Shown here one piece after another: positions 35,828 to 43,040 of a stretch of 64,000 nucleotides of DNA. Source of the DNA: Longimicrobiales bacterium (GTDB lineage Bacteria; Gemmatimonadota; Gemmatimonadetes; Longimicrobiales; Gaopeijiaceae); contig CBDANQ010000059.1 of assembly GCA_965197725.1 (NCBI GenBank), positions 96,001-160,000 on the forward strand. Reading direction: 5' to 3'. Below the pieces are notes generated by a model. That model did not search any database. It was not told the origin of the DNA and was given only the letters and a program-made list of their open reading frames with translations. How positions within the stretch are numbered: the stretch's first letter is position 1; each line of letters begins with the position of its first letter. Made by a program: the position numbers and the translations under genes.

Positions 35828-36029
35828 GGGCTCTTGGGGGCTCTCGGTCCTCTCGGGACCCGCTCTTGACACCACGGGCCTCCAGAGAGGGTTAGGCTCC
35901 TCCTGAAATCACCAGCCGGTCTTTTGACGCTCGCGCCCGGACGGCGCGGACGGCATGGACGGCAGATTCCAGGAGTCTCGCAGATGCCACTCTGTAGGAC
36001 GAAGATTCTCGAAGGGAGGGCACGCCTAG

Positions 36030-37524
36030 CAGACCGTGGATAAAGTCCGGTCATCGCTGTTGTGTTAAATCAGGAGGACACGAGGGTTTTTGCAGCGAGG
36101 ACGGCGATGGCGGTAGGCAAGCGGCCCGAGGCTCGGCAGGGCGAGATGTTCGTGGTGGCGAGCGAGATTCGGGCCTTGGACAACCCGTTCTACTGGGCCT
36201 TGAACGAGCTTCTGGCGAAAAGCGGGTTTGACGAGTTCGCGGAAGAGGCATGCCGTGAGTGCTACGCGGACAATCGGGGTCGGCCGGGGATTGCTCCCGG
36301 GGTGTATTTCCGAATGATGATGGTGGGCTACCTGGAAGGGATCGGCTCGGAGCGGGGCATTGCCTGGCGGTGTGGGGACTCGTTGTCGTTGCGTGAGTTT
36401 CTGGGATACGGGTGGGCGAAGAACCCGCCGGAGCATTCGACCCTGTCGAAGACGCGCAAGCGCCTGAGCGTGGAAGCGCACGCGGCGGTGTTCGGGCGGG
36501 TGCTGGAGCTGCTGAAGGGGTCGGGGTTGCTGAGCGGCAAGACGCTGGGCGTCGACTCGACGACGCTGGAGGCGAATGCGGCGATGCGCACGATCGTGCG
36601 GCGCGACGACGGGTTGGGCTACGATGAATGGCTGGAGCAGGTGGCCCGGGCGTCGGGGATCGAGACGCCGACGCGCAAGGATCTGACGACGCTGGACCGG
36701 AAGCGTCCGAAGAAGGGCTCGAACAAGGACTGGGTGCATCCGCACGACCCGGAGGCGCGGATCACGAAGATGAAGGACGGCAGGACGCGCCTGGCGCACA
36801 AGTTGGAGCAGGCGGTCGACATGGAGACCGGTGCGCTTGTGGCGGTGACGGTGCAGACGATGGACGGGGGAGATGTGGCGTCGCTGCCCAACACGCTGGA
36901 CGAGGCAGAGCGGCAGCTGGAAGTAGTGCAGGTAGAGCCCGAGGAAGTGGTGGCCGACAAAGGCTACCACTCGAACAAGACCATGACGGGCGTGAAGGAG
37001 CGGGAGCTGCGCAGCTATGTGAGCGAGCCCAACCGCGGGCGCCGGAAATGGAAGAACAACCGGGACGCGCAGACGCCGACCTACGACAACCGCCGCCGGA
37101 TCCGCGGCAACCGGGGGATGCGGCTGCTGCGCCAGCGCGGCGAGAAGGTGGAGCGGGGGTTTGCGCACTTGCTTGTGACCGGAGGGCTGCGTCGCGTCCA
37201 CATACGGGGCCAGGAGGAGATTCGAAAACGGATGTTGATCCACGCGGCGGCCTTCAACCTCGGCCTTCTCATGCGCAAGCGGTTCGGGGTTGGAACCCCC
37301 CGTGCGTTACAGGGCCTCGCTACCGTACAAGCTGCGCTCGCAACTCAGGTTACAACCCGCGTCTCGCGCTTTTTCCGCCGTATTCGGCGCTATTTCGCCT
37401 TCCTTGGGCCGAATATCGCCTCGTCAGACCCCAAAACCCGCTTCTTGCACAACAACACAGCCCCCGCGTGTCTGCCTTCTCTCCCACCCATCATCCGCTG
37501 GGAACCTATTTCTTCCACGGACTG
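36030..37524 (+). mobile_element. IS1182/IS5-like element, copy 1 (transposase 36062-37528)
   Basis: CTAG TSD on both sides; IR CAGACCGTGGA/CAGTCCGTGGA; GRPGIAP..SERGI..PEHSTLS, GVDST, VADKGY, VERGFA. Confidence 0.93.
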
Positions 37525-37635
37525 CTAGGTGCAGCGCTCAGCGACCCGTTCTGCTGCCTCGAAGATAAGGCGCCCCCGGTACGGGGCTGGTTCACTTTCC
37601 TAGCTCGGGATCTTCCGCTCGCCACATTCCAAACA

Positions 37636-39231
37636 CTTATCAGGCCCCCGGAGTCAAGAGCGCGCATGTCCCCCGGCGCGTCGCGGAGCGGCGCGTAATG
37701 AAGTGAGCGTCGGTCGTCGAGTCCTCTGACTTGGTTTCCGTCAACAGGTGCGAGCACTTCCGAGCTCTGCACCAAACACTTATCGAGGTTCAACCGCCGG
37801 GTGCCCTTCGAGGCGAGCTCGAAGGAGCGGCGGAGCAGGAGCCTGCTGTGGGCTCCTACGACCTAGAAATTCATCTGTGCCCTCGTGCCGTCCGACTCCA
37901 TTCAAGGTGAGCAGGCTCGGGCCGTGAGGCGCCGGACCAGTTAGCTCCGGGCTCGGGTGAGGGGCAGAGTCCTGAGTTAGACCGCCTTCGATGTGTGGGG
38001 AGCGGGAGGAGGCGTCCAATCAAGCGAGGCGGCTGTCAGGCATCCGGTGCCCGCTCGAGTTAGAAATCGGGGCTCGCGACCTCCCCTCCCCGTCAGGTGC
38101 GTGTATAGAAGCGTTCGGTGTGGAATGCCTCCCCGTTCTTGAGCATGAAGTAGGTGGCGCGACCGATGCGAGCCGCGAGGATGCTGAGCGCCTTGCCCTT
38201 GCCGTGGCGGCGCGCGAGCCTCTTGAGATGGCCCTGGGCCGCGGACGTTGTCGCGTAGGAAGAGGACGGCAGCCTCGCTGAACGCCCACTTGAGGTGTGC
38301 GTTACCGATCTTGGCTCCTCCGCTGCCGACCCGCTTGCCTGCACTGCGGTGCTCGGGCTTGGCGAGTCGACAGTAGGAGCTGAAGCGCTGCACTGTGCTG
38401 AAGCGAGCGATGTCGTGGATCTCATAGAGCAGCGTGAGCGCCAGGATCCGACCGATGCCGGGGATGGTTCGGAGCCGCTCCAGCGTGTCGGAGTCGTGGA
38501 CACGGGCTTCTTCTTCGACCGTACGCTCGAGTTCTCGGATCACGGGGTCGTAGCGATCGGCCAGGGCGAGGTCCGCCTCAATGGTCCTCTGGATCATGGG
38601 ATCGTCGAACGCCTGGGCCAGTCCCTCTCGGTTCTTCTTGTAGAGGAGCTGACCCGGGGGCCGAGGCAGGTTGTACTGATGAAAGGTGTTGCGGACGTGG
38701 GCGAGGAGCTCGCCGCGCTTGCGCACGAAGTAGAGTCGGCGCCGGAGCACATCGCGCGTGGCTCGCATCTGGGGAGGATAGACGTAGGCCACCGGGAACG
38801 CACCACCACGCAGCAAGACCGCCGTCTTGTGCGAGTCGATGTGGTCGTTCTTGGCCTTGGCCCCGTGGATCGCCTTCATGTAGAGCGCATGGCCGAGCAC
38901 GAAGTGGATCTGCTCACGAGCACATAGATCGGCGAGCCAGTACCAGCAGAAGATGCACTCGCTGCCCACCACGAGGTCCAAACGGTAGGGCTCGAGGGCG
39001 CGAAGCAGTGCCTCGCGCTCACAGCGTAGCCTCTTGTGCAGTCGTATCTTGCCCTGGCCGTCCAGAACGCAGAGGTAGAGCGTGCGAGCGTGAAGGTCGA
39101 TGCCACAGTAGTATCGATGCTGGCCGGTGTAGAAGCGCATGGTTCCCCTCCTGGGTTGGATGGATCGAGCGTCGCGCTCTGATCATTCCGTCCTCTCTGT
39201 GAGAGGTCCAGGAGGGGGCCTGCATGAGTAT
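37636..39231 (-). mobile_element. IS110-family element (recombinase 39140 to 38093 with a +1 frameshift near 38237)
   Basis: DEDD RuvC-like N-terminus YCGIDLHART, AKNDHIDS, TIPGIG, SAGK..IGNAHLKWAFSEAA; imperfect IRs ACACTTATCAGGCCCCC / GGGGGCCTGCATGAGTAT; ends approximate. Confidence 0.9.
37650..38092 (-). ncRNA. Candidate bridge/seek RNA in the IS110 3' non-coding end
   Basis: ~460-nt non-coding stretch with several stem-internal loop-stem modules and segments identical to both element junctions. Confidence 0.65.
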
Positions 39232-39286
39232 CAAGCGATTTGGTGCGCATCTCCACGTGGGCCCCGAAGCCGGACTATCAAAAACA

Positions 39287-39735
39287 TCAGCCAGCCGCTG
39301 CCGACTCGTTGGGGATGTCGAGGCCGGCCTCACGAAGAAGGTTGAAATACGTGGCGAAGAACGTACGGTCCGTATTTGGCCAAACTCGCTCGAAGAACTC
39401 AGGGGAGAAATCCGGCTGCATCTCTAACAATGTGCTCACTGCCGCCCGCGCTTCTTCGAATCTCCCCTGCCCGGACAACGCCGCGGCCAAATTCGCGTAG
39501 GCCCAAAAGCTGGCTCTCGGGTGATGTGACGCTAGCCGAGCACATTCCTCGGCCTGTTGAAACCGCCCCAACACGCTGAGGACCCCAGCTCGAACGGCCT
39601 GGAACACCGGAAGATACGGGTCGTGCGGGCTTAGTTGCTCGGCCAACTCAAACTCAGGTACGGCTGCTTCCGGACGGCCCATGAACGCGAGACACAACGC
39701 AAGGCCGTAGTGCGCGAGCGCAAAGCTGGGCTTGG
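39287..39735 (-). pseudogene. TPR-repeat protein C-terminal fragment (TolB/adenylate cyclase-associated type)
   Basis: GRPEAAVPEFELAEQLSPHDP, GRFEEARAAV..LLEMQPDFS, LREAGL; no 5' part. Confidence 0.65.
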
Positions 39736-40131
39736 GGTCAGCACCGGTCCATTCTGGTCGGCACTATTTGCGGACTGTGTCCTCCTCCTGATCGTCATTA
39801 CTTATCGTTGTCTCCCGAACTGCTCCGGTCCGCATCCCCCCTCGCCCCGATTCGGAGGACGAAGCCGACCACCAAGCGGAAGTACCGCACAGGTTCGCCC
39901 CGGTCTTTCGCAGGCGCGTCGAGCACTGGGCACCGGCGCACGATCCGCCACCCGTGGTGCGGGTGGACGGCCCTTCCTCCACAAGTGGCCGTGTGACCGG
40001 CCTTCGGCGAGCCCTACAGCCGTCTCGATACCCAGACGACGCGACCTACGACACGGATCTCGTCGGCGGGGCGTTCGTAGCTGTCGTACTCGGCGTTGGC
40101 AGACTTGAGCACGACTCTGGGTGGAGCGGGA

Positions 40132-40645
40132 CTACGGCAGTGCGTCAACGTGTGACTGGAGGGCTTCCCGCAGAGCGCCGAGGCGCTCTATAGCCCACGC
40201 TCGGAGGTCCGGCCAGCGGTCACGCTCCTCGACACCAATGTCGTCCTGATAGTAGCTGGCTATCCGGCTCGCCCGACGTGACTCCAGGCGCTCCCATTCT
40301 AGATTCTCGCCGAACTGGTCTTCGATCTCTTCGCGCCGCCCCGTCAAGGCATCAAAGCGCCGAGTTGCTTGGTCCTGATCGTCGGCATCCACATAAAGCT
40401 CGATGCGGAATCTCCTCGGAAGGCAAAAGCCCGCTGAGTAGGACAAGCCAGTCAGCGCGTCGAATAACTCAGCGTCAAGGTGCCGCCACTCGTCCGGATT
40501 CTGGAGGTGGGCAGTGTGCCTTCCGTCACCGGCGGGTCCAGCGTTGGGATGCAGGTACCAAGCGACACCGAGACGCTTCGTTCCTCGGATCGCCCTCAGG
40601 AGTGCGTACTTCACGAAATCTCCCACGTCTCCGACGTAACGAAGG
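40132..40645 (-). pseudogene. Chimeric fragment: conserved hypothetical N-terminus (RYVGDVGDFVKYALLR) fused to a DUF4268-like C-terminus
   Basis: ELYVD..FDAL..REEIEDQFGENLEWERLESRRASRI resembles DUF4268; abrupt change near 40440. Confidence 0.55.
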
Positions 40646-40962
40646 AAGAGCTCGTAGGTGCGGATCTCCAGAGCGCAATTTCCGATGAGCAGCCGACGCC
40701 GTATGGGCGCAACACTCGGCGTGCGGCAATCCAAGGACGGTCGTTTCCGTGATGCTTGGCTTGGAGTTTCTAGTCCCGACGGCGTGCCGGTCTTTGCCGC
40801 GCGCATGTGCCGCAGGTTGGCCACGCAGTAGAATGTGGGAGGTTAGAGTCGCATCTTCAGTTGACGACTTCGCGAACGGGGAAGAGTTTCACGATGGTAC
40901 CGGCCTTCTTCGGACCCGACGGCCGATCTCAATCCCGCGCGGTCTGAGAACAGGAAGTAGAT

Positions 40963-43040
40963 GTGCTGAGTGCTGAAGTGCCCATCCGCGAAGGACAGGT
41001 CCTCACCGGAACCCTGTTCAGTGAGCCCATGCAGGTGGAGACGGTTCGCGCCAACGGTCCCGGCGTTTGGGTGGCAGGCCTTGTGGGCCAGCGTTCAGAG
41101 CGGTTCCGGCGAGTCACACTCACCTCGGCTGACATTGCGAAGCTAAGCATCGCCGACTCTGCTCTATCCTACGATGGCGATGGGCGGCTACTGCGGATCG
41201 GCCTCCAGGCCTATTCGCTGGGCATTGCCTGGGAGTTCGATCCCTATTTCGGACTTTCCATCTCTCGTGTGGACCCGCTGCCGCACCAGCTTGAAGCCGT
41301 CTACGAACACCTTCTGAAGCTGCCCAGCGTGCGTTTCCTGCTTGCGGACGATGCGGGTGCAGGCAAGACCATCATGGCAGGCCTCCTCGTCCGTGAACTG
41401 AAGCTGCGGGGCCTTATTGAACGGGTGCTCGTGGTCTGTCCCGCGAACCTGTCGTTTCAGTGGCAGCGGGAGCTGAAGGAAAAATTCGACGAGAAGTTCG
41501 TCGTGCTGAAGGGCAGCGACATCCGCGATCAGTTCGGGGTCAACCAGTGGATGGAGCAGAAACAGATCATCACGTCGCTCGACCTCGCCAAGCGCACGGA
41601 GATCTTGCCTGGCGTACAGCAGGTACACTGGGATCTGGTGATCGTCGACGAGGCACACCGCATGTCGGCACGTGACGAGAGCCATAAGAGCCAGCGCTAC
41701 AGGCTTGGGGAAATGCTGCGCGACAGCACCGATCACTTGCTGCTGTTGACCGCCACCCCGCACAAGGGCGACCCAGAGAACTTCACGCTGTTCCTGCAGC
41801 TGCTTGACCGGGACGCCTACGCCGATGTGAAGTCGATCCACGAAGCCATGGATCGGAGGCGGGCACCCTTCTACCTGCGACGCACCAAGGAGGCGATGGT
41901 CTATTTTCCGGAGCGCCAAGCTGACGGCGTGTGGACCGCAAGGCCGATATTCACCAAGCGCATCGCTCGTACAGCTGCCTTCGCCATCGATGGTCCGGAG
42001 TTCGAACTCTACCAGAAGATCACCCGGTTCGTGAAACGACAGAGCGCCCGTGCCGCAGCGGACGGCGACAATCCACGGGCCCGGGCGGTCGGTTTCTTGA
42101 TGTCGCTATATCAGCGGCGCCTGGCTTCAAGTACCTACGCCATGCGGCGGTCGCTAGAAAACCGAGCAAGGCGACTGAAGGAGGGTCTCAAGCGCGCTCA
42201 GGAGCTGGTGCGGACGGCGCCGCCGGACCTACCCGACTGGGAAGAGCTCGAGGAGTTCGAGGAAGCCGAGCGTGAGCGCCTGGAGCGAATGCTGGAAGCG
42301 GTCACGCTAGCCGGCAATGCGGACCAGGTACGTGAGGAGGTGGCCGAACTGCTAGAGCTGGCCGAAGAGGCGAAAGCCGTCGAGGGCTCGGCCAAGGAGG
42401 CGAAACTCGGACATCTTCGCGAGATCATGCGGGATGAGGGATTCTTCGACCGCCCGGACCAGCGACTGCTGCTCTTCACCGAGTTCAAGGATACCCTCGA
42501 CCATTTGATGGAGCAGTTGAAGGCGTGGGGCTTCAGCGTGGGCTGCATCCACGGCAGCATGAAGCCTGGCTCACGCGACGAACCGGGGAGCCGGATCTAC
42601 ACGGAACAGCAGTTCCGCGAAGGTGCCATCCAGGTGCTAGTAGCGACCGAGGCGGCCGGTGAAGGCATCAACCTTCAGTGCTGTCACATCCTGTTCAACT
42701 ACGACATCCCATGGAATCCGAATCGGCTCGAACAGCGCATGGGCCGCATCCACCGCTACGGACAACAGCACGACTGCCTGATCTTCAACTTCGTTGCGAC
42801 CAACACGATCGAGGGGCGGGTGCTGCAACGCCTCCTGGACAAACTCCAGGAGATCCGCGATGCCCTCGATGACGATGCAGTGTTCAACGTCGTGGGCGAG
42901 ATCTTGCCCTCCGCTCACCTGGAGCGTGTGCTGCGGGACTATTACGCAGGCAAGCTAGGTGACGCCGACCTCGAGGAGCGGCTACTCGAGGATGTGGATG
43001 AGGGTCATTTCCGAGCCATTTGTCAGACAGCGCTGGATCG
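40963..43040 (+). pseudogene. SNF2-family helicase, C-terminally truncated
   Basis: DPLPHQLEAV, LLADDAGAGKT, VIVDEAHRM, LLTATPHKG, ATEAAGEGINLQ, WNPNRLEQRMGRIHRYGQ; homology ends near 43035. Confidence 0.88.

What the first reader, a model, noticed from the sequence alone, without database searches (positions are those of the whole stretch)
37629..38092. IS110 element with a long, apparently three-module bridge RNA matching both of its own junctions
Seen (minus strand): ~460 nt of non-coding DNA after the recombinase stop. It folds by eye into three stem/internal-loop/hairpin modules at about 38092-37997, 37968-37875 and 37788-37723. Modules 1 and 2 repeat the scaffold GAGCCC-N4/6-CTAACT ... 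CTTGA(T/A)TGG. Module 3 has GATAAGTGTTTGG (37784-37772), 13/13 identical to the right junction (37641-37629), at an internal loop closed by CCTC/GAGG and GGTGC/GCACC stems. Module 1 has TCGCTTGAT (38027-38019), 9/9 identical to the left junction (39238-39230). Its variable segment CGATTT (38069-38064) is complementary to the flank AAATCG next to that junction. Known: IS110/IS1111 recombinases are guided by an element-encoded RNA with target- and donor-binding loops; the IS621 prototype has two loops and is much shorter. Inference: this is an expanded guide with a duplicated loop, possibly specifying two targets or each end separately.
Basis: partly seen in the sequence, partly recalled or inferred. 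Interest (0 to 1): 0.8.

Follow-up and report, generated by a model that had tools for sequence, protein, structure and literature searches.

The report
Three-part guide RNA of jumping gene
The stretch is the guide-RNA end of a 1.6-kb jumping gene of a known RNA-guided type; its three parts are real and shared by relatives, but the middle part does not look like a second address, so this is a well-documented new example, not a new mechanism.

Summary
The strings and coordinates hold. The region is the 464-nt 3' non-coding end of an IS1111-type (IS110 family) element. The genome has 4 full copies; only the window copy is frameshifted.

Relatives of 56-96% protein identity share all three modules.
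- Module 1 is the target loop. Its 3' guide tracks the left flank (60 vs 38.3±4.6, 0/5000). Its 5' guide is hypervariable, and its partner is only weakly resolved.
- Module 3 carries the right-end donor guide: 229/243 positions identical to the right end across 27 loci, 0/5000.
It is complementary to the left end with four Watson-Crick pair types at one position (112/150 vs 87.2±4.5, 0/10000).
- A covarying long-range helix encloses modules 2 and 3. This fits the "multi-loop" donor domain noted for IS1111 elements (PMC11208160).
- Module 2 looks like a duplicate of module 1. I found no DNA partner for it, and its loops drift.

"Two targets" is not supported. Expression is unproven. The scan has reported IS1111 guide RNAs before on other DNA.

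The parts
37632..39234 (-). Whole IS1111-type element (about 1.6 kb), counting the TT at both junctions
   Evidence: Four full copies at 99.6-100% identity share exactly this span. The common sequence starts at (C)TTGATACTCATG and ends at ...CCTGATAAGTGTT.
39223..39234 (-). Left end: TT (putative core) plus GATACTCATG, the right-donor sequence and a -10-like GATACT
   Evidence: TTGATACTnATn is conserved in 56-96% relatives. Bases 7-12 pair with the RNA's left-end guide.
39214..39222 (-). Left sub-terminal inverted repeat, CAGGCCCCC
   Evidence: Inverted copy at 37649-37641. The family-wide counterparts are AAGGCCTCC and ATGGCCTCC.
38093..39140 (-). Recombinase gene, broken here by one extra C near 38238
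   Evidence: Pfam PF01548 (E 3.6e-9) and PF02371 (E 3.8e-19). NCBIfam NF033542, 187.7 bits against a cutoff of 140. The intact form is 348 aa in the 3 sister copies.
38004..38091 (-). Module 1: target-binding loop (seekRNA equivalent), closed by GGGGAGGGGAGG/CCUCCUCCC
   Evidence: It starts 1 nt after the stop, as described for IS1111 seekRNAs (PMC11187229, Results). It is conserved in relatives.
38058..38075 (-). T1: GAGCCC-CGAUUU-CUAACU, the 5' guide of module 1 (variable part 38069-38064)
   Evidence: Hypervariable between 94-96% relatives. With CUAA included it tends to match TT plus the right flank (82 vs 71.5±4.8; 92 of 5000 as high). The variable 6 nt alone are weak (z 1.7).
38013..38035 (-). 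B1: 3' guide of module 1, made of left-target guide UCGC (38027-38024), core UU (38023-38022) and GAU (38021-38019, the element's first bases)
   Evidence: B1 vs left flank: 60 vs 38.3±4.6, 0 of 5000. UUGAUUGG is invariant in the family.
37965..37969 (-). 5' strand (CUCUG) of the long-range helix P0
   Evidence: Pairs with CAGAG at 37728-37724. In 33 distinct sequence pairs, base pairs 1-6 are paired in 33, 33, 33, 32, 31 and 28. There are compensatory changes at bp 4 (UA 25, UG 4, CG 2, GC 1) and bp 5 (CG 11, UA 8, UG 11, GC 1).
37877..37964 (-). Module 2: an arm like module 1, with T2 GAGCCC-GGAG-CUAACUGG (37954-37937) and B2 GAGCCUG-CUCACC-UUGAAUGG (37918-37898). No partner found.
   Evidence: Its covariance model hits 76 of 82 sources. 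Basal stems are 97.9% paired, 6 of 10 pairs show compensatory change, 0 of 500 shuffles as high. No match to flanks, ends or the element itself.
37862..37875 (-). Left-end donor guide (RDG-like): GAUGAA + UUUCUA + GG
   Evidence: The 6 nt 5' of the conserved UUUCUAGG pair with left-end bases 7-12. Across 25 distinct pairs, 112 of 150 cells are paired vs 87.2±4.5, 0 of 10000. At one position the pairs are UA 10, GC 8, AU 3, CG 2.
37794..37857 (-). Two small variable hairpins between the two donor guides
   Evidence: By eye. Variable among relatives. Contigs of relatives replace this stretch (table 5).
37775..37784 (-). Right-end donor guide (LDG-like): GAUAAGUG + UU
   Evidence: Identical to the right end at 37641-37632. 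Across 27 loci, 229 of 243 positions are identical vs 211.2±2.8, 0 of 5000. It follows right-end variants ATAGGTGTT, ATACATGTT, ATATATGTT and ATAGATGTT.
37747..37774 (-). Hairpin c (UGGUGCAG...GCACC). Its first three bases are the TGG of the 13-mer.
   Evidence: TTTGGTGCAG is invariant in the family. Pairing support is inconclusive.
37724..37728 (-). 3' strand (CAGAG) of helix P0, within the conserved tail GAAACCAAGUCAGAG
37652..37657 (-). -35-like TTGACT just inside the right inverted repeat
   Evidence: TTGAC(A/T) is conserved at this place in 22 of 22 loci shown. A junction-promoter role is inferred by analogy with ISEc11 (PMC11187229); it was not tested.
37641..37649 (-). Right sub-terminal inverted repeat, GGGGGCCTG
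37632..37640 (-). Right end: ATAAGTG (left-donor sequence) plus TT
   Evidence: ATA(A/G)GTGTT is conserved in relatives. The four full copies diverge immediately after it.

Best explanation
The region is the 3' non-coding end of a 1.6-kb IS1111-type member of the IS110 family. It most likely encodes a bridge (seek) RNA of about 370 nt with two domains.

**Domain I (module 1)** is the target-binding loop.
- Its 3' segment reads the left flank plus the TT core plus the first bases of the element.
- Its 5' segment ends in CUAAC. That can pair with G-TT-AG, meaning the last base of the element, the core, and the start of the right flank.

**Domain II** is a multi-branched donor-binding domain closed by a long-range helix (CUCUG/CAGAG).
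- One single-stranded run, just after module 2, is complementary to the top strand of the element's left end.
- A second run, in module 3, is identical to the element's right end plus the core.
- This is the same strand rule as RDG and LDG in IS621, and the same order (top-strand match 5' of bottom-strand match) reported for IS1111 seekRNAs.

**Module 2** is an arm of domain II that repeats module 1's scaffold. I read it as a retained duplicate that serves as a protein-binding or architectural arm. Its former guide positions now drift.

**Shown:** conservation, covariation of stems, and covariation of three of the four guide segments with their DNA.

**Inferred:** that the RNA is made, that it binds the recombinase, and the role of module 2.
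For: **Family**
- Pfam PF01548 and PF02371; NCBIfam "IS110 family RNA-guided transposase", 187.7 bits.
- The C-terminal domain aligns to IS621 (PDB 8wt6, E 1.4e-5), with a Ser opposite the Ser of IS621's ESG motif.
- 9-bp sub-terminal inverted repeats and a long downstream non-coding end.
- 4 full copies with different flanks.

**Conservation of the three parts**
- Seen in relatives of 56-96% identity from several phyla, and in a Vibrio campbellii plasmid copy at 54% identity.

**Structure**
- Module 2 stems: 97.9% paired, 6 of 10 pairs with compensatory change, 0 of 500 shuffles as high; slid controls reach at most 51.6% paired.
- Long-range helix P0: paired in 28-33 of 33 distinct sequence pairs at each of 6 base pairs, with compensatory changes.

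**Guides**
- B1 vs left flank: 60 vs 38.3±4.6, 0 of 5000.
- Right-end guide vs right end: 229 of 243 identical, 0 of 5000.
- Left-end guide vs left end: 112 of 150 paired vs 87.2±4.5, 0 of 10000, with 4 Watson-Crick pair types at one position.
- T1 and B1 differ between 94-96% relatives, while the donor guides and module 2 do not.

**Literature**
- IS1111 seekRNAs start just after the stop codon, with the top-strand match 5' of the bottom-strand match (PMC11187229, Results read).
Against: - No direct evidence of transcription or protein binding. The RNA-labelled runs hold only contigs of relatives, and these cannot show strand, ends or freedom from DNA.
- The partner of T1 is weakly resolved.
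  - Its variable 6 nt score z 1.7 in the expected right-flank register.
  - They score z 2.9 one base off that register.
  - They score z 1.8 on the left flank.
- In this genome the right flanks match T1 no better than about 5 of 10.
- My permutation tests break phylogeny, so their counts overstate significance. The compensatory pair types are the stronger evidence.
- Right and left ends of relatives were placed from the inverted repeats at fixed offsets. 38 of 78 loci gave a call, and 4 of those were doubtful and dropped.
- The TT core is inferred from four copies, not from an empty site.
- Module 2's proposed scaffold role is an inference from absence of a partner.
- Hairpin c is not supported by covariation on my alignment.
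- Rfam has no matching family.
Confidence: 0.75

Rival explanations
1. One reading: module 2 is a second programmable target loop, so the RNA specifies two targets.
For: - Module 2 keeps every scaffold feature of module 1: GAGCC-variable-CUAAC and AGCC-variable-UUGA-UGG.
- Its loop segments differ between lineages.
- They are identical in three close relatives whose apical hairpins differ.
Against: - T2 vs right flank: 51 vs 53.5±3.6. B2 vs left flank: 46 vs 40.1±4.5, with 535 of 5000 permutations as high (19 loci).
- It is unchanged where module 1 guides change.
- The predicted module-2 site is not enriched in the genome: 21 hits at up to 3 mismatches, against 10-51 for shuffled patterns.
- Its variable positions change almost as fast as the apical hairpin (0.23 and 0.39 vs 0.45 differences per site; stems 0.066).
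Confidence: 0.1
2. The internal 13-mer is mainly a DNA-level feature: an alternative or former right end of the element that the recombinase can use. It would not be an RNA guide.
For: - In contig C52 the last ~145 bp of the element are duplicated in tandem, starting exactly at the internal copy.
- ISPpu9 uses alternative end boxes to move modules (PMC12288879, passages read).
- An internal end copy would also covary with the true end.
Against: - The internal copy sits at a fixed place in a conserved, structured domain, next to an invariant UGGUGCAG hairpin.
- Its partner, the left-end guide, is antisense to the left end. A DNA repeat cannot explain that.
- Any bridge RNA gene must contain such a copy, so the C52 duplication is expected as a side reaction.
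Confidence: 0.08
3. The conserved 3' end is not a guide RNA at all. It would be protein-binding DNA or an mRNA 3' UTR with regulatory structure.
For: - No transcript was shown.
- Single-sequence folding is no better than shuffles (z -0.55).
- Rfam gives no hit.
Against: - Compensatory base-pair changes occur in stems 90-240 nt apart.
- Guide segments track flank and end sequences by the strand rules of IS621 and the IS1111 seekRNAs.
- The family is annotated as, and experimentally known to be, RNA-guided (PMC11187229, PMC11208160).
Confidence: 0.03

Closest known systems
IS1111-group seekRNAs (ISEc11, ISPa11, ISKpn4, ISPst6; Siddiquee et al. 2024, PMC11187229)
   Same: - Sub-terminal inverted repeats and a long non-coding end downstream of the recombinase gene.
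- The RNA starts just after the stop codon.
- Top-strand match lies 5' of the bottom-strand match.
- The target guides are naturally reprogrammed between close relatives.
   Different: - The recombinase is far from these. The only named enterobacterial type listed, ISEc45-type in E. coli/Klebsiella, is about 27% identical over 57% of the protein in the plasmid collection. The best named relatives are 49-58% identical (Manganitrophus, Vibrio, Alteromonas).
- The structured RNA is about 368 nt. The published short forms are 82-96 nt and the long forms 148-172 nt (PMC13604230, Table 1).
- The published work maps target matches only. Here both donor guides are also mapped.
IS621 bridge RNA (Durrant et al. 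2024, PMC11208160; Hiraizumi et al. 2024, PMC11208158)
   Same: - Four guide functions with the same strand rules: the left guides are identical to the top strand plus core, and the right guides are complementary to the top strand.
- Constant bases beside the guides match the other partner's DNA (GAU in B1; C of CUAAC in T1), like handshake guides.
   Different: - The RNA lies at the 3' end, not the 5' end, and the order of guides is reversed.
- The donor guides are about 90 nt apart in a multi-branched domain closed by a long-range helix, not in one internal loop.
- There is an extra arm like the target loop (module 2).
- The core is TT (inferred), not CT.
- Protein similarity is detectable only in the C-terminal domain (E 1.4e-5).
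Predicted IS1111 bridge RNAs with a multi-loop donor site (Durrant et al. 2024, section 'Diverse IS110s encode bridge RNAs')
   Same: [quoted passage not shown] That is what I find here.
   Different: I could read only the text and legends, not Fig. 6d or Extended Data Fig. 10c. I therefore cannot say whether an arm like module 2 or the closing helix is drawn there. The text does not mention either.
ISPpu9 modular ends (Pares-Guillen et al. 2025, PMC12288879)
   Same: Copies of end sequences inside or beside the element allow alternative recombination products. Compare the tandem duplication of the last ~145 bp in contig C52.
   Different: ISPpu9's extra module is a separate small-RNA gene flanked by its own end boxes. 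Here the internal copy is the guide-coding sequence itself.

Membership tests
IS110 family, IS1111 group | N-terminal DEDD (RuvC-like) domain | tested here: met
   PF01548 at residues 12-156, E 3.6e-9, 37 bits against a cutoff of 29. NF033542, 187.7 bits against a cutoff of 140.
IS110 family, IS1111 group | C-terminal PF02371 domain with the conserved Ser of the G--P----S(G) motif | tested here: met
   PF02371, E 3.8e-19. In the alignment to IS621 (8wt6), the query's ...PEHRSAG... places its Ser opposite the Ser of IS621's ...YESGSS.... It reads SA rather than SG.
IS110 family, IS1111 group | Sub-terminal inverted repeats of 7-17 bp | tested here: met
   CAGGCCCCC (39222-39214) and GGGGGCCTG (37649-37641). 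These lie 12 nt and 9 nt from the ends.
IS110 family, IS1111 group | Longer non-coding region downstream of the recombinase gene | tested here: met
   464 nt downstream against 94 nt upstream of the ATG.
IS110 family, IS1111 group | Site-specific insertion at a shared core, with no true target duplication | tested here: inconclusive
   TT stands at both junctions of all 4 full copies, and left flanks resemble each other (AATCGC, AAGCGC, AAGCCC, CAATCGC). No empty site was found, so a shared core and a 2-bp duplication cannot be told apart.
IS110 family, IS1111 group | Circular intermediate with a junction promoter | not testable with these tools
   Only sequence hints exist: a conserved TTGAC(A/T) inside the right repeat and GATACT at the left end, 20 nt apart once joined.
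Bridge RNA / seekRNA | Conserved secondary structure supported by compensatory changes | tested here: met
   Module 2 stems and long-range helix P0. Hairpin c is inconclusive. Module 1's stems were seen by eye only.
Bridge RNA / seekRNA | Target loop with one segment per DNA strand that changes with the insertion site | tested here: inconclusive
   The left-target segment passes (0 of 5000). The other segment is hypervariable, but its partner is only weakly resolved (92 of 5000; z 1.7-2.9). Its fit is poor at this genome's own sites.
Bridge RNA / seekRNA | Donor guides matching both element ends and covarying with them | tested here: met
   Right end: 229 of 243 identical, 0 of 5000. Left end: 112 of 150 paired, 0 of 10000, with 4 Watson-Crick pair types at one position.
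Bridge RNA / seekRNA | The RNA is transcribed and bound by the recombinase | not testable with these tools
   Contigs of relatives (90-95% alike) in two RNA-labelled runs from two studies cover parts of the region. They show neither strand nor ends, and DNA carry-over cannot be excluded.
Two-loop bridge RNA of the IS621 type | Two simple internal loops, one for the target and one for the donor | tested here: not met
   The donor guides lie in a multi-branched domain with an extra arm. The RNA works like a bridge RNA but does not have the IS621 architecture.
Rfam families | Match to a curated RNA family | tested here: not met
   0 matches at E up to 1 in 36000-41000.

The most novel reading that the evidence does not exclude
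Module 2 is a working third guide loop. Its two lineage-specific segments would pair with a nucleic acid I did not sample: a second DNA site used in excision or copy-out, a host site, or another RNA. IS1111-type recombinases would then assemble on three guide-bearing units rather than two. The evidence does not exclude this. The scaffold that presents the guides is fully kept in relatives down to 56% protein identity. The loop segments are identical in three close relatives whose neighbouring hairpins differ. My partner search covered only the flanks, 80-100 nt at each end, and the element itself.
Probability: 0.12. Interest if true: 0.75.

Novelty: new member of a known kind. Interest (0 to 1): 0.38.

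Why it matters
RNA-guided IS110/IS1111 recombinases are being developed as genome-writing tools, and almost all mechanistic work rests on the two-loop IS621 RNA.

This clade gives a readable natural example of the other architecture. It spans Gemmatimonadota, Desulfobacterota, Nitrospirota, Balneolales and marine Gammaproteobacteria. It has a short target loop and a large multi-branched donor domain. Three of the four guide segments are placed by covariation; the fourth, the 5' target guide, only tentatively.

It also isolates a concrete open question: what is the conserved second arm, which resembles the target loop, for? For this window itself, the result is a sound annotation of a multi-copy element with one broken copy.

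Tried and rejected
- **Single-sequence folding of the 464 nt.** MFE -192.6 kcal/mol, z -0.55; 30 of 100 shuffles fold as well. Uninformative in this GC-rich DNA.
- **RNAalifold on a MAFFT alignment of module 3.** It found only 3 trivial pairs, because the hairpin varies in length. My own 9-pair structure for hairpin c was no better than shuffles.
- **First test of T1 against the right flank.** It used a register one base off and was redone.
- **First extraction of the long-range helix and of the left-end guide.** Loose anchors mis-placed several loci. Both were redone with better anchors.
- **Partners for module 2's loops.**
  - Flanks.
  - Fixed-offset scan of 100 nt at each end on both strands. 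The best z values, 3.3-3.8, were no higher than the background signals from shared ancestry.
  - The stretch just inside the right repeat pairs 9 of 10 in the window copy and its two closest relatives, but only 5-8 of 10 in the other 19 loci.
  - The whole element on both strands gave no consistent place.
  - Predicted ideal sites in the genome were not enriched.
Rejected.
- **Insertion into the end of the neighbouring IS5/IS1182-like element.** Rejected. That element ends at 37528, about 100 bp away.
- **Expression.** Four metatranscriptome-labelled runs were laid on the element. They hold only contigs of relatives, so there is no verdict.
- **attC sites as the family's target.** This lead came from earlier scan notes. 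The base before TT is variable, so the attC GTTRRRY core is not generally met. I did not pursue it.
Full report
**1. What is at the coordinates**

All coordinates are on the minus strand.
- The recombinase frame opens at ATG 39140. In this copy it runs into a wrong frame. The true C-terminus (...KNGEAFHTERFYTRT) is in a second frame that stops at 38095-38093.
- Comparing the four full copies in the genome (contigs C59, which is the window, plus C52, C29 and C60; 99.6-100% identical) shows one extra C near 38238 in the window copy only. The other three encode an intact 348-aa protein.
- The protein carries PF01548 and PF02371. It passes NCBIfam's "IS110 family RNA-guided transposase" model at 187.7 bits against a cutoff of 140.
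- Its C-terminal domain aligns to IS621 (8wt6, E 1.4e-5), with a Ser opposite the Ser of IS621's ESG motif.

**2. Ends**
- The copies share sequence from (C)TTGATACTCATG... to ...CCTGATAAGTGTT and differ outside it.
- TT stands at both junctions, so I take TT as the core. This is an inference; no empty site was found.
- Nine-base sub-terminal inverted repeats are present: CAGGCCCCC at 39222-39214 and GGGGGCCTG at 37649-37641.
- The non-coding end downstream of the gene is 464 nt.
- Together these features make this an IS1111-type element as defined in PMC11187229 and PMC11208160.

**3.

The first two are rarer than chance.

**4. Relatives**
- A scan of one genome per species returned 505 relatives. 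I kept the best 80, at 56-96% protein identity. Most are metagenome-assembled genomes of Gemmatimonadota, Desulfobacterota, Nitrospirota, Balneolales and others.
- In 38 of 78 loci with a readable stop codon I could place both inverted repeats. 4 of those were doubtful and were dropped later.
- The ends are strikingly conserved: TTGATACTnATn plus repeat on the left, and repeat plus ATA(A/G)GTGTT on the right.
- The right repeat lies 399-689 nt after the stop (420-620 nt in the confident calls). The long 3' end is therefore a clade feature, not a peculiarity of this copy.

**5. Module 1 (38091-38004)**
- Directly after the stop, every relative has GGAGGGGA..GAGCC(C)-variable-(C/A)UAACU. Later comes variable-UUGAUUGG.
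- Between the window copy and its 94-96% relatives L011 and L013, almost everything in the 3' end is conserved. The exceptions are these two variable segments and some hairpin loops.
- The 3' segment (B1) matches the left flank: 60 matches vs 38.3±4.6 in permuted pairings, 0 of 5000, across 19 loci.
- B1 reads UCGC-UU-GAU, which is left flank, core, and the first three bases of the element.
- The 5' segment (T1), read together with its constant CUAA, tends to match TT plus the right flank.
  - Overall: 82 vs 71.5±4.8, with 92 of 5000 as high.
  - Good cases: L088 8 of 9; L013 and L035 6 of 9.
  - The six variable bases alone give only z 1.7 in that register, z 2.9 one base off, and z 1.8 on the left flank.
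- In this genome the right flanks (AGATAGCT, AGATGGCC, AGGCATCT, TGGAATGT) fit T1 no better than about 5 of 10.
- I therefore leave T1's partner in this element open. The family rule favours the right flank. Reading the left flank on both strands is not excluded.

**6. Right-end donor guide (37784-37775)**
- The motif TC-N-ATAAGTGTT-TGGTGCAG occurs once in the 3' end of 60 distinct relatives.
- Its ATAnnTGTT part follows the relative's own right end: ATAGGTGTT, ATACATGTT, ATATATGTT, ATAGATGTT.
- Across 27 loci, 229 of 243 positions are identical vs 211.2±2.8 permuted, 0 of 5000.
- The following TGG is invariant RNA sequence.

**7.
- I searched each 3' end for a run able to pair with its own left end. 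This kept returning the segment just 3' of module 2, upstream of an invariant UUUCUAGG.
- With clean anchors there are 25 distinct guide/end pairs.
- The six bases pair with left-end bases 7-12 in 112 of 150 cells, vs 87.2±4.5 permuted, 0 of 10000.
- The pair types vary: UA 10, GC 8, AU 3, CG 2 at one position; UA 14, AU 7 at the next; AU 19, CG 3 at the third.
- The right-end guide is identical to the top strand, and the left-end guide is complementary to it. This is the IS621 rule for LDG and RDG (PMC11208160, PMC11208158).
- The order, top-strand match first, is the IS1111 order (PMC11187229).

**8. Helix P0 and the domain plan**
- CUCUG (37969-37965), just before module 2, pairs with CAGAG (37728-37724) in the conserved tail GAAACCAAGUCAGAG.
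- In 33 distinct sequence pairs, the six base pairs are formed in 33, 33, 33, 32, 31 and 28 cases.
- The pair types vary: CG, UA, UG and GC occur at bp 4 and bp 5.
- This helix encloses module 2, the left-end guide, two small hairpins, the right-end guide and hairpin c.
- The result is a multi-branched donor domain. This is what Durrant et al. state in one sentence for many IS1111 orthologues. I could not see their figures.

**9. Module 2 (37964-37877)**
- Its basal stems are well supported: 97.9% paired, 6 of 10 pairs with compensatory change, 0 of 500 shuffles as high, and slid controls at most 51.6% paired.
- A covariance model built from 49 sequences finds it in 76 of 82 sources, 27 of them outside the building set.
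- In the window, the model's best non-self hit is module 1, aligned in register but weak (8.1 bits, E 0.27).
- Its two loop segments do not match the flanks. They show no consistent partner at either end or inside the element.
- The site they would specify is not enriched in the genome.
- Among 56 sequence pairs of 80-97% identity, the variable positions differ at 0.23 (T2) and 0.39 (B2) per site. Compare 0.45 in the apical hairpin, 0.066 in stems, and 0.14 in the columns I labelled as the left-end guide, which sit about one base off.
- I read module 2 as a retained duplicate of the target-loop scaffold whose guide positions are no longer read.
- Two points count against that reading. The segments are invariant in the three closest relatives. 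The B2 columns of that alignment are also gappy, which inflates their rate.

**10. Beyond the clade**
- A Vibrio campbellii plasmid copy (54% identity) shows the same three parts and an internal copy of its own right end, ATATGTGTT.
- A Pseudomonas aeruginosa plasmid element (30% identity) seems, by eye only, to have two GAGCC...ACUGG units and a third region repeating its right end.
- If that holds, the plan is general for IS1111-type RNAs. That lowers its novelty.

**11. Expression**
- Fourteen runs hold most of the stretch. Their kind is not on record, and I assume they are DNA.
- Four metatranscriptome-labelled runs held small shares.
- Laid on the element, they give contigs of relatives (mostly 90-95% alike) over parts of the gene and the 3' end. 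One example is a 288-nt contig over 38225-37937 in X17; another is a 184-nt contig laid over 37964-37818 in X18.
- Contigs show neither strand nor ends, and DNA may be present. This is no evidence of transcription.

**12. Verdict**
- This is a real, multi-copy IS1111-type element. Its 3' end has the anatomy of a bridge RNA with a separate target loop and a multi-branched donor domain.
Its "two targets" idea is not supported. Its "each end separately" idea is half right.
- The kind has been known since 2024, and this scan has met it repeatedly on other DNA.
- What remains open is the role of the second arm, which resembles the target loop.

Noticed in passing
window 36026-37528 (+): An IS5/IS1182-like element of about 1503 bp. 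Its 488-aa DDE transposase ORF runs to the element's end. It is present in more than 40 near-identical copies in a 3.0-Mb, 89%-complete assembly.
   Followed up: partly
G000 contig C52, 19507-21257 (locus L003/L008): A sister copy carries a tandem duplication of its last ~145 bp. The duplication begins exactly at the internal copy of the right end (the guide-coding site). This looks like recombination between the true right end and the internal copy. Compare the alternative end boxes of ISPpu9 (PMC12288879).
   Followed up: partly
G000 contig C32, 62591-63979 (loci L005, L007, L009): A fifth copy is present only as three rearranged pieces. Its left flank (GACTGCAGCAATCGC|TT) is the same as the left flank of the relative L013 in another genome. 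This suggests a conserved host sequence that this lineage targets.
   Followed up: no
loci L015-L089, 20 nt on either side of the element: - Left flanks of elements from different phyla share GCCGTC(C/A)G-TGCA.
- Right flanks often read AGACGGC or AGGCGGC, which suggests a palindromic, repeat-like target.
- Earlier scan notes place look-alike recombinases inside integron attC arrays.
- The base before TT varies, so the attC core GTTRRRY is not generally met.
   Followed up: partly
window 37652-37657 with 39227-39232: TTGACT sits just inside the right repeat, and TTGAC(A/T) is conserved there in all 22 loci shown. GATACT sits at the left end. In a circle they would face each other 20 nt apart. 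This would be a junction promoter like ISEc11's, but with an unusually long spacer.
   Followed up: no
G000 contig C45, about 27677: An unoccupied site resembles module 1's ideal target (...CTCGC-TG-AGAAGTCGGGGG). It matches 16 of 18 positions, but its core is TG rather than TT. This was selected after the fact, and about 1.5 such 16-mers with 2 mismatches are expected by chance.
   Followed up: no
L092 2208-2620 (Pseudomonas aeruginosa plasmid NZ_CP093017.1): A 30%-identical IS110-family element has a ~390-nt 3' end. By eye it holds two GAGCC...ACUGG units and a third region repeating its right end (ATGGGTG). The three-part plan may be general for IS1111-type elements.
   Followed up: no
window 39287-39697 (-) and 40132-40824 (-): Neighbouring genes: the 3' end of a TPR-repeat protein, which ends 50 bp from the element's left end, and a DUF4268 protein.
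   Followed up: no
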